DNA of 64,000 bases from assembly GCA_964016885.1 (NCBI GenBank), contig OZ024758.1, positions 17,794,001 through 17,858,000 of the forward strand. Direction: 5' to 3'. This document shows, in pieces, positions 106 to 46,439 of the stretch; position 1 is the stretch's first letter, and every line of letters starts with the position of its first letter. The notes beneath the pieces are model-generated. The model was not told where the DNA came from, ran no database searches, and was given only the letters and a program-made list of their open reading frames with translations. A program made the translations under genes and the position numbers. The DNA comes from Eledone cirrhosa. Its lineage: Eukaryota.

Positions 106-310
106 ATCAAGTTTAATATAGAAAGGGCTTCTACAGGACTTGAACTGTTTCACTGAAAAGATATCATCAGCTTTCCTGATGATTTCTTTTGAATGAAACA
201 GTTCAAGTCTTATAGATGCCTTTTCTATATTAAATTTGATGTTTACACTCTACTAATATATTGAGTACTTCACTAACTATGGTTGCTCCCGGCTGAACCC
301 AGGACCCACC
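106..310 (+). mobile_element. Fold-back hammerhead element, family A (decayed), between (TA)n tracts
   Basis: Imperfect inverted arms 106-170 and 176-240. The + strand reads CTGATGA(176)-tttc tttt gaat-GAAA-cag ttcaagtc; the inverted arm keeps ctgTA-gaagccc. The tail ACTCtactaatatattGAGT...ggttgctcccggctgaaccc resembles the copies at 12048 and 44501. Confidence 0.75.
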
Positions 311-8909: not shown

Positions 8910-8947
<38 letters not shown>

Positions 8948-8975
8948 TGGTTACACAACAGTTAGTTCACCATAC

Positions 8976-9013
8976 CGAGAACAATTGTTTCAATTTAGCG
9001 GATCCTCAGCTTG
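8976..9013 (-). ncRNA. Minimal type I hammerhead-like motif
   Basis: CAAG-CUGAGGA-uccgcuaaauu-GAAAC-AAUU-GUU-CUCG with a palindromic ACAAUUGU helix III. The inverted copy at 9020 has CGAG, which restores helix I. Helix II is poor. Confidence 0.55.
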
Positions 9014-9056
9014 TATTTACGAGCTGAGGAACCGCTAAGGTCTCGCCAGTGTTCAT

Positions 9057-10672: not shown

Positions 10673-11035
10673 GAGGCACATGGCTTAGTGGTTAGAGCAT
10701 TGGCCTTGCAATCGAAAGGTTGTGAGTTCAATTCTCAAACTGGGTAATGTGTTGTTTCCTTGAGCAAGACACTTTATTTCACATTGCTCCAGTTTACTCA
10801 GCTGTAGAAATGAGATGATAGGGAGGGACCCCAGTGGAATGATAGGGACCCCAGTCCCTATCATTCCACTGCAAAGTGGTCGTGGAGGTGCCACGGCAAA
10901 AAAGCACCCAGCACTCACTGTAAATGAGGTTGGTGTTAGGAAGGGCATCCAGCTGTAGAAATCAAGCCAGCATCAGTTCCCGTCCCACCCTTGCAAGCAG
11001 GGAAAAAGCGGACGTAAAATGAAATGAAATGAATG
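10673..11035 (+). mobile_element. tRNA-CORE SINE family B, full length
   Basis: Same head, CORE and tail as the copy at 4068. Confidence 0.9.
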
Positions 11036-12047: not shown

Positions 12048-12205
12048 GTTTTAATATAGAAGGTTTCATTTATGAGCTCCCTGATGATTTCTCACAAATG
12101 AAACCGTTTTAGTCCTGTAAAAGCTCTCCTATATTAAAACTTTTATACTCTGCTATGTATTGAGTACCCTACTTACTGTGGTTACCTCCGATTCAACCTG
12201 GAATA
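12048..12205 (+). mobile_element. Family A hammerhead element (decayed)
   Basis: gagctcc-CTGATGA(12081)-tttctcacaaat-GAAA-ccg ttttagtc ctg-TA-aaagctc; short inverted arm at 12048-12070; tail TACTCtgctatgtattGAGTA. Confidence 0.75.
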
Positions 12206-44391: not shown

Positions 44392-44460
<69 letters not shown>

Positions 44461-44500
44461 ATGTATATGTATGTGTATATATATATATATTTATATATAC

Positions 44501-44690
44501 GTAGGTCCCGGGTTGAGTCGGGGATAACCACAGTAAGTAAGGTACTCAATACATGGCAGAGTAAAGTTTTTTTTATTTTATAGAAGGAGCTTCTACAGGA
44601 CTAGTACTGTTTCATTCAGATGAAATCTTCAGGAAGCTTTCATCTGAATGAAACAGTACTAGTCCTGTAGAAGCTCCTTCTATAAAATAT
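44501..44690 (-). mobile_element. Family A fold-back hammerhead element (young) in (TA)n
   Basis: Perfect ~50-bp inverted arms (44575-44625 and 44638-44688); tail TACTCtgccatgtattGAGTA...cccgggacctac; (TA)n flanks. Confidence 0.9.
44588..44638 (-). ncRNA. Type I hammerhead ribozyme, intact core
   Basis: AGCUUC-CUGAAGA-u-UUC-aucu-GAA-u-GAAA-CAG-uacuaguc-CUG-UA^GAAGCU. Helix I has 6 bp and helix III 4 bp, with palindromic ACUAGU in its loop and a GUA cleavage triplet. Confidence 0.85.
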
Positions 44691-44850
44691 ATTTATATAT
44701 ATATATATATATATACATATATATGTGTGTATGTATGTGTGTGTATGTATATGTATATATGTATATATATATATATATAAATATATTTATATGTGTGTGT
44801 GTGTGTATATGTGTGTATATGTGTATGTGTATGTGTGTTTATGGGTGCGC

Positions 44851-44912
<62 letters not shown>

Positions 44913-44961
44913 GCATACATATATTATATATCTACATACATACATACACATACACACACAC

Positions 44962-44993
<32 letters not shown>

Positions 44994-45119
44994 TAAATGC
45001 AACGTTTTTCGAAATATTTACTTTTGCGTTCACAGATTGATTATTTTAGTTTCAGAAGAACCCGTTAAGGGGAAAGCAGCGACTCTTTGCTTAAACTTTA
45101 ATCTGTTATTTTAATATAT

Positions 45120-45211
<92 letters not shown>

Positions 45212-46227: not shown

Positions 46228-46439
46228 TATATTTGAAGACTAAAATCCAAAGGGGGCTCGATAAGGATAAATATATATGAGATATATAAGAACTGTAAAG
46301 CAAATATTTATTAAAATAACAGATTAAAGTTTAAGCAAATAATCGCTGCTTTCACCCTTAACGGGATCTTCTGAAGATCCCATTAAGGTTGAAACCAGCG
46401 ATTATTTGCTTAAACTATAATCTGTTATTTTAATAAATA
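46228..46439. mobile_element. Family E fold-back element with hammerhead-like core
   Basis: Hairpin 46305-46439 centred at 46372; CTGAAGA-tccc(g/a)ttaagg(g/t)t-GAAA. Related pieces are at 45052-45115 and 25470-25560. Confidence 0.7.

What the first reader, a model, noticed from the sequence alone, without database searches (positions are those of the whole stretch)
44501..44690. Compact intact hammerhead with an atypical U·U pair at the base of helix II
Seen: the minus strand at 44588-44638 folds as a complete hammerhead (6-bp helix I, GUA site, ACUAGU palindrome in loop III). The base of helix II is U·U rather than the usual G-C. The same U...U flanks occur at 176-198, 12081-12103, 46371-46394 and 8976-9013. 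Inference: this is a conserved structural variant rather than decay.
Basis: partly seen in the sequence, partly recalled or inferred. Interest (0 to 1): 0.7.

Follow-up and report, generated by a model that had tools for sequence, protein, structure and literature searches.

The report
U·U hammerhead of Hydra-clade Penelope element
This is the short end-piece of a common jumping gene whose self-cutting RNA motif carries a U·U mismatch shared by tens of thousands of copies and already listed for related elements; it likely weakens cutting, and the folded-back shape of such copies suggests they are likely built from two DNA copies of an uncut RNA.

Summary
The hammerhead sequence at 44588-44638 (-) is real, and U·U is the family state, not decay. 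Of 29,745 genomic matches, 28,657 (96.3%) have U·U and 1 has G-C. Four other helix II types in this genome also close with U·U.

It is not new. U·U is published and tested in axolotl HHR_Amex2, and a published table shows it in 14 of 25 Hydra-clade Penelope families.

The motif is the terminal repeat of a Hydra-clade Penelope-like retroelement. The window copy is a 190-bp head-to-head insertion in (TA)n, whose 57-bp fold-back would block the ribozyme in read-through RNA.

A by-product is more interesting. Broken copies stop at the first base of helix I, 29-30 nt after a TATA box, and rarely at the cut site (at most 2 of 100). All 19 of 19 head-to-head pairs join one long and one short end. In 13 of 20 asymmetric junctions the 'copied' arm is the longer one. 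This points to two cDNAs made on uncut RNA and joined end to end (inferred). The scan noted the 'RNA starts there' idea before, for another family in this genome.

The parts
44588..44638 (-). Type I hammerhead ribozyme motif: helix I 6 bp, core, U·U + 3-bp helix II, 4-bp helix III with 8-nt loop, GUA site
   Evidence: sequence
44614..44625 (-). Helix II: U10.1 (44625) opposite U11.1 (44614), then UUC/GAA and a 4-nt loop
44599..44606 (-). Loop III with ACUAGU palindrome; predicted dimer contact
   Evidence: self-duplex of the helix III strand -15.2 kcal/mol against -1.4 for the hairpin
44593..44594 (-). Predicted self-cleavage site, after GUA
   Evidence: sequence; hammerhead numbering from PMC4209133
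44500..44587 (-). Rest of the pLTR including the one-sided tail; long end at +139, joined to (TA)n. In full elements it runs on into the RT-endonuclease ORF
44638..44689 (+). Inverted partial copy from +14 to about +65 (short end); lacks helix I 5' strand and the CUGAAGA core
   Evidence: I16; L218
44626..44644 (.). Head-to-head junction; +1 (44638) is the shared 5' boundary of broken copies and the inferred transcription start
44408..44499 (.). (TA)n target tract, left side
44687..44993 (.). (TA)n target tract, right side
117..309 (.). Older, decayed head-to-head copy of the same family (cores at 148-170 minus and 176-198 plus)
12075..12201 (+). Decayed copy of a sister subfamily
46305..46439 (.). 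Fold-back of a second U·U family (CCC/GGG helix II), half hammerhead without the helix I 5' strand
8944..9015 (-). Decayed copy of a third U·U family (CC/GG helix II)

Best explanation
The motif is the type I hammerhead in the terminal repeat of a Hydra-clade Penelope-like retroelement, U·U is its normal family state, and it is likely a weak, dimer-dependent ribozyme that leaves most element RNA uncut; the window copy is a 190-bp head-to-head insertion in (TA)n, likely made from two cDNAs. Shown: the family link to an RT plus GIY-YIG ORF, the U·U consensus, the sharp 5' boundary of broken copies at helix I base 1, the TATA box 29-30 nt upstream, the rarity of copies starting at the cut, and the one-long-one-short rule. 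Inferred: (1) U at 10.1 removes the G10.1 N7 metal ligand and shortens helix II, so cutting is slow unless two motifs pair through loop III or protein helps. (2) Transcription starts at helix I base 1. (3) The endonuclease nicks both strands of (TA)n and each 3' end primes RT at one of two internal sites (about +60 to +75, and +139). (4) Both cDNAs run off the RNA 5' end and anneal through 1-6 nt of homology, giving the fold-back. The window copy has no TATA box of its own and would be masked by its hairpin in read-through RNA, so it is likely inert.
For: PLE link: the tail runs into an ORF with YRDDG RT and C-terminal YIG endonuclease motifs; hammerheads on both sides of the ORF region, 3.1-5.2 kb apart, in 6 of 9 long loci. 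U·U; 14 of 25 Hydra families in PMC8557442 File S2 (hand count). Weak activity by precedent: axolotl U·U motif 22% cleaved in 1 h as monomer, much more as dimer (PMC7229834); G10.1 N7 binds the metal (PMC6961537). 5' boundary: of the first 100 of 1,920 matches, 51 keep the native upstream sequence, 1 is ambiguous, and 48 of 48 broken ones break at -1 or downstream (hand count); no boundary between -56 and -2 in 39 arms; sister subfamily without the AGCT palindrome: 34 of 35 broken among the first 100 of 3,215 (hand count). TATA box 35 or 36 nt before the core in 31 of 35 copies with a TATA hit. Cut site: 1, at most 2, of the first 100 of 1,761 matches begin there. Ends: 19 of 19 pairs long + short; 20 of 20 at the window's junction, with the +14 arm the long one in 13. 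In vitro precedent in a Poseidon element: both strands cut and extended, two internal RT starts, uncut RNA as template, protein-assisted hammerhead (PMC11167929).
Against: No cleavage assay and no RNA data. Within one family 96.3% is what recent common descent plus neutral decay would give, so selection rests on the across-family pattern only. The one tested U·U motif cut better as a monomer (22%) than its G-C sister (6%), though the two also differ in helix III, so U·U need not be a brake. The +1 A is also part of a CAG that looks like a 3' splice site, and in D. virilis the intron ends at helix I. No TATA box at the matching place in the four other families examined. The counts are arms, not loci; they come from the first 100 matches on one chromosome, and the patterns miss copies broken further in. 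4 of the 20 junction loci carry an extra 8-nt duplication (10 of the 16 simple ones have the long +14 arm). Pfam gives only a sub-threshold GIY-YIG hit in one of two proteins and no RT hit; PDB gives nothing significant.
Confidence: 0.7

Rival explanations
1. The U·U motif is a fully active ribozyme with its own way of holding the metal (for example U·U stacking on the G·A pairs, or protein help); it cuts element RNA efficiently at a later stage, and only uncut RNA is copied.
For: U·U persists across five helix II types here and in 14 of 25 Hydra families from three phyla, with the core and helix I and III pairing kept. The axolotl U·U motif cleaves. The anole PLE hammerhead cleaves once protein is added.
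Against: Copies starting at the cut site are rare. The active fold is weak in the model. PLE hammerheads tested so far are slow.
Confidence: 0.2
2. The shared 5' boundary is a 3' splice site (CAG at -1 to +2) and not a transcription start; the fold-backs come from self-priming on an antisense transcript, as proposed for rotifer elements.
For: CAG with a pyrimidine-rich run upstream in the sister subfamily, and AG at the same place in the CCC/GGG family. The D. virilis intron ends at helix I. Self-priming on antisense RNA was proposed in PMC3846280.
Against: No common upstream exon is joined to broken copies. The TATA spacing fits a start at +1 in two subfamilies whose ORFs are 72% identical over the first 145 aa. 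The 'copied' arm is the longer one in 13 of 20 loci. Both outer ends lie at TA-matching sites, as target priming needs.
Confidence: 0.2
3. The unit is a non-LTR retrozyme: a short tandem repeat that makes circular RNA by self-cleavage.
For: Type I motif with palindromic loop III; one tandem with 174-bp spacing; retrozymes are reported to derive from PLE pLTRs.
Against: The 174-bp tandem has lost the CUGA part of the core. The other joins among the 17 matches differ from each other and are deletions into the ORF start. Copies are head-to-head pairs or ends of ORF-bearing elements.
Confidence: 0.05
4. U·U is decay of a dead ribozyme, amplified by chance in one lineage.
Against: Five unrelated helix II stems keep U·U; young copies at 98-100% identity and a sister subfamily with intact 758-codon frames carry it; so do other phyla.
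Confidence: 0.05

Closest known systems
Hydra clade of C-terminal EN+ Penelope-like elements and their hammerheads (Craig et al. 2021, PMC8557442, section 11 and File S2)
   Same: RWx and DKT motifs, YRDDG, CxCx5C linker, CxxC and CxH in the endonuclease, (TA)n targets, hammerhead in the pLTR, U flanking helix II on both sides in 14 of 25 listed families, helix III ACAG/CUGU-A as in several listed families.
   Different: Different hammerhead from Hydra-1_Obim; 8-nt loop III where listed ones have 1-3 nt; unit length 3.1-5.2 kb because of a microsatellite-rich 3' region, against 'generally <3 kb'; about 30,000 motif copies.
Axolotl HHR_Amex2 (Cervera and de la Pena 2020, PMC7229834, section 15)
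   Same: Type I hammerhead with U·U at the base of helix II; high copy number (about 60,000).
   Different: HHR_Amex2 lies in 350-bp tandem retrozyme repeats that give circular RNA and was assayed; this one lies in a PLE pLTR, has a longer helix III and was not assayed.
Inverted 5'-truncated pLTR with one-sided tail in EN+ PLEs (PMC8557442 Fig. 2 legend; PMC3846280)
   Same: Head-to-head arrangement, palindrome at the junction, tail on one end only.
   Different: Here the junction is fixed at the first bases of the hammerhead, the tail is about 65-75 nt, and arm lengths argue for two cDNAs, where PMC3846280 proposed self-priming on antisense RNA.
Poseidon element of Anolis in vitro (Frangieh et al. 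2024, PMC11167929)
   Same: Two internal RT starts that define the tail, AT-rich targets, uncut RNA as template.
   Different: Different clade, minimal hammerhead overlapping the ORF start; in the parts read, head-to-head joins are not explained.
Minimal PLE hammerheads (Cervera and de la Pena 2014, PMC4209133)
   Same: In pLTRs, palindromic helix III region, low activity, predicted dimers.
   Different: Those keep G10.1-C11.1 with an extra base before it and a 7-8 bp helix II; this one has no extra base, U·U and 3 bp.
LINE-1 twin priming (recalled, no call)
   Same: Two target-strand primers give an inversion.
   Different: In LINE-1 the two cDNAs copy different parts of one RNA; here both copy the same 5' segment.

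Membership tests
Type I hammerhead ribozyme | Core CUGANGA and GAAA with U16.1-H17 site | tested here: met
Type I hammerhead ribozyme | Helices I, II, III can pair; helix I is the open end | tested here: met
   6, 3 and 4 bp, -6.7 kcal/mol when imposed, but not the favoured fold
Type I hammerhead ribozyme | Highly conserved (not invariant) G10.1-C11.1 pair | tested here: not met
   U·U in 28,657 and G-C in 1 of 29,745; an active natural exception is published
Type I hammerhead ribozyme | Match to an Rfam hammerhead model | tested here: not met
   none at gathering score; the E-value mode was not run
Type I hammerhead ribozyme | Site-specific self-cleavage | not testable with these tools
   needs an assay
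Hydra-clade PLE | Single ORF, RT followed by C-terminal GIY-YIG endonuclease | tested here: met
   YRDDG at 347, YIG at 602-603 in L100 and L098; Pfam GIY-YIG only sub-threshold, E 0.012, in one of two
Hydra-clade PLE | RWK-type and DKT motifs | tested here: met
   RWR at 38 (R for K), DKT at 116; blocks match the published alignment by eye
Hydra-clade PLE | CxCx5C linker; CxxC and CxH in the endonuclease | tested here: met
   566-575, 666-670, 694-697
Hydra-clade PLE | Absence of the CCHH motif | tested here: inconclusive
   judged by eye and by motif scan only; no alignment to CCHH-bearing clades was made
Hydra-clade PLE | (TA)n insertion and hammerhead in the pLTR | tested here: met
Hydra-clade PLE | Length generally under 3 kb (typical, not strict) | tested here: not met
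   3,068-5,236 bp between hammerheads in 6 loci; the ORF itself is about 2.1 kb
Hydra-clade PLE | Placement in the RT tree with reference Hydra elements | not tested
   reference sequences were seen only as text in a supplement
Non-LTR retrozyme | Tandem repeats with an intact hammerhead in every unit and no ORF | tested here: not met
   the one 174-bp tandem has a broken core; the unit continues into an ORF
Non-LTR retrozyme | Circular RNA monomers | not testable with these tools
   needs RNA

The most novel reading that the evidence does not exclude
Hydra-clade PLE RNA begins at the first base of its hammerhead, and U·U is a selected brake that keeps the capped RNA intact for translation and copying. 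The head-to-head inverted pLTR seen across Penelope elements is made by two target-primed cDNAs, one from each internal start site, that run off the RNA 5' end and anneal to each other, not by self-priming.
Probability: 0.45. Interest if true: 0.6.

Novelty: new member of a known kind. Interest (0 to 1): 0.33.

Why it matters
The U·U pair alone adds little, since it is already published. It is still a useful natural test of how far a hammerhead can do without the G10.1 metal ligand, because five helix II types in one genome keep it. The stronger point is mechanistic. How PLEs make inverted ends and what their hammerheads do are open questions. Thousands of young 150-200 bp copies with a fixed junction and a strict long-plus-short rule give a direct prediction for an in vitro reaction and for 5'-end mapping.

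Tried and rejected
Rfam at gathering score: no hammerhead family, only a weak tRNA-like hit. Retrozyme array: rejected. Snap-back of a single cDNA, my first reading: rejected because the arm that would be the copy is longer than its template in 13 of 20 loci. Junction explained only by the AGCT palindrome: rejected because the sister subfamily lacks it and has the same boundary, and non-palindromic joins start there too. 'Extra base plus G-C' reading of helix II: does not fit; with one U unpaired no stem forms. Pfam and PDB searches were uninformative. No ORF of the element in the window, and no plain host gene seen among its ORFs by eye. A structure scan of 314 kb not chosen by similarity gave only 18 motifs, too few for family frequencies. 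Lunse et al. 2017 on dimeric PLE hammerheads is not held and is only recalled. No large protein search, tree or structure prediction was run. The main text of PMC8557442 does not remark on U·U in the terms searched, and searches listed no paper devoted to U·U in PLE hammerheads; searches listed none stating the two-cDNA join or a start at helix I. Figures, paywalled papers and bioRxiv supplements were not seen and may hold either.

Full report
Observation. The minus strand at 44588-44638 holds every sequence part of a type I hammerhead: 6-bp helix I, CUGAAGA, GAAA, a 4-bp helix III with an 8-nt loop containing ACUAGU, and a GUA site. Helix II is U·U followed by three pairs and a 4-nt loop. The core with U flanks occurs 6 times in the window against 0.015 in shuffles. 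The folding model does not favour the active shape (probability 0.001), and Rfam gives no hammerhead match at gathering score. The four other cited places are damaged copies of three different families.

Is U·U conserved? Yes. With both positions free and the rest of this helix II fixed, the genome has 29,745 matches and the reversed control 0. 28,657 (96.3%) have U·U and 1 has G-C. That figure alone could be recent common descent. The better evidence is across families: an unrelated CCC/GGG stem has U·U in 74 of 83 matches (hand count; the pattern's last base restricts it to a subset), and AGCU/AGCU, UGC/GCA and CC/GG stems also close with U·U in the loci in hand. Other families in the same loci have a direct G-C or the extra base plus G-C. 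Hydra-like ORF pieces lie beside single copies of the CCC and UGC families and in a locus holding the CC family, a weak link.

What it belongs to. The 136-nt query has 254 candidates, of which 40 were scored; these are 98-100% identical and most carry an inverted partial copy. In longer copies the tail runs on into an ORF. One copy of this subfamily has an 823-codon open frame, and a sister subfamily (72% over the first 145 aa) has many 758-codon frames. The protein has RWR, DKT, YRDDG, a CxCx5C linker, YIG, CxxC and CxH, the features given for the Hydra clade (PMC8557442 section 11), and its blocks match the published alignment by eye. Pfam and PDB add nothing firm, and no tree was built. It is not a retrozyme array: the one 174-bp tandem has a broken core.

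How the window copy was likely made. Among the first 100 of 1,920 matches of this subfamily, 51 keep the native upstream sequence, 1 is ambiguous and 48 are broken; all 48 break at -1 or downstream of the first base of helix I (hand count; arms, not loci). In 39 arms from 30 of those loci no boundary falls between -56 and -2 (5 arms were of other subfamilies). The sister subfamily, which lacks the AGCT palindrome, gives 34 of 35 (hand count of the first 100 of 3,215). A TATA box lies 29-30 nt before that base in both, so I infer that the RNA starts there. Only 1, at most 2, of the first 100 of 1,761 matches begin at the cut site, so the copied RNA was mostly uncut. All 19 head-to-head pairs found in 60 loci not chosen by similarity join one long and one short end. 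The window's own asymmetric junction occurs at 20 loci; all are long plus short, and in 13 the arm that a snap-back would have copied is the longer one (4 of the 20 have an extra 8-nt duplication). Two cDNAs, primed from the two strands of the nicked (TA)n at two internal sites and annealed at their 3' ends, explain this. The perfect palindromic join has 250 matches, about 125 loci. This fits the anole element in vitro (PMC11167929) and differs from self-priming on antisense RNA (PMC3846280). A 3' splice site at the same CAG remains a rival, and the other four families examined show no matching TATA box.

What U·U likely does. G10.1 N7 binds the catalytic-site metal in crystal structures (PMC6961537), so U there is predicted to slow cutting. 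Loop III favours pairing of two motifs (-15.2 against -1.4 kcal/mol), and a full transcript would carry one motif at each end. A slow ribozyme suits an RNA that would lose its cap if cut at +45. This is inference: the one assayed U·U motif cut 22% in an hour as monomer, more than its G-C sister at 6%.

Comparison and verdict. U·U at the base of helix II is stated and assayed for axolotl HHR_Amex2 (PMC7229834), and U flanks helix II on both sides in 14 of 25 Hydra families in File S2 of PMC8557442 (hand count), without comment in the main-text terms searched. The finding is a new, very abundant member of a known kind. The scan had noted the start-site idea for another family in this genome; my note of it came before that look-up. 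Interest 0.33, carried mostly by the junction evidence.

Papers seen: PMC7229834 passages and section 15; PMC8557442 passages, section 11, supplement part 2 of 59 and search hits, no figures; PMC4209133 and PMC11167929 parts 1-2 of 4; PMC3846280 and PMC6961537 passages; bioRxiv 10.64898/2026.07.22.740005 parts 1-3 of 5, supplements not seen. Lunse 2017 and LINE-1 twin priming are recalled only.

Noticed in passing
window 23977-25466: About ten tandem units of 127-163 bp separated by (TA)n; each joins the reversed 3' half of one hammerhead family to tail sequence of the CCC/GGG family, a composite of two element ends amplified locally.
   Followed up: partly
window 21380-21403 (+) and 28476-28500 (-): Hammerhead cores of the usual PLE type, with an extra base and a G-C pair at helix II, 78-79% identical to each other.
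   Followed up: partly
window 45051-45141: Decayed copy of the CCC/GGG family with its native upstream sequence, ending in a pyrimidine run and AG just before the core, like a 3' splice site.
   Followed up: partly
window 10679-10742: Weak tRNA-like Rfam hit (29.9 bits) beside microsatellites, likely the head of a tRNA-derived SINE.
   Followed up: no
L048, L050, L051, L100, L103, L104: Units are 3.1-5.2 kb because of a long microsatellite-rich region between ORF end and the next hammerhead; the TATA box sits at its 3' end, so one unit would drive the next.
   Followed up: partly
G000:C1:83679800-83691723: Twelve same-strand hammerhead copies of the sister subfamily about 1.03-1.11 kb apart: a tandem array that could supply dimer partners.
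   Followed up: no
L103, L106, L062, L137, L180, L201: Several U·U families have U at position 17 (NUU site), usually a poor cleavage triplet (recalled); the published Hydra table shows the same in many rows.
   Followed up: no
window 44503-44520 (-) and L100: A small 4-bp hairpin just before the long end is predicted in both subfamilies and may mark the RT start; an earlier scan note raised a similar idea.
   Followed up: partly
L047, L002, L003: Extra G bases just before +1 or +2 in a few joins, possibly copied from the RNA cap; only one case is unambiguous.
   Followed up: no
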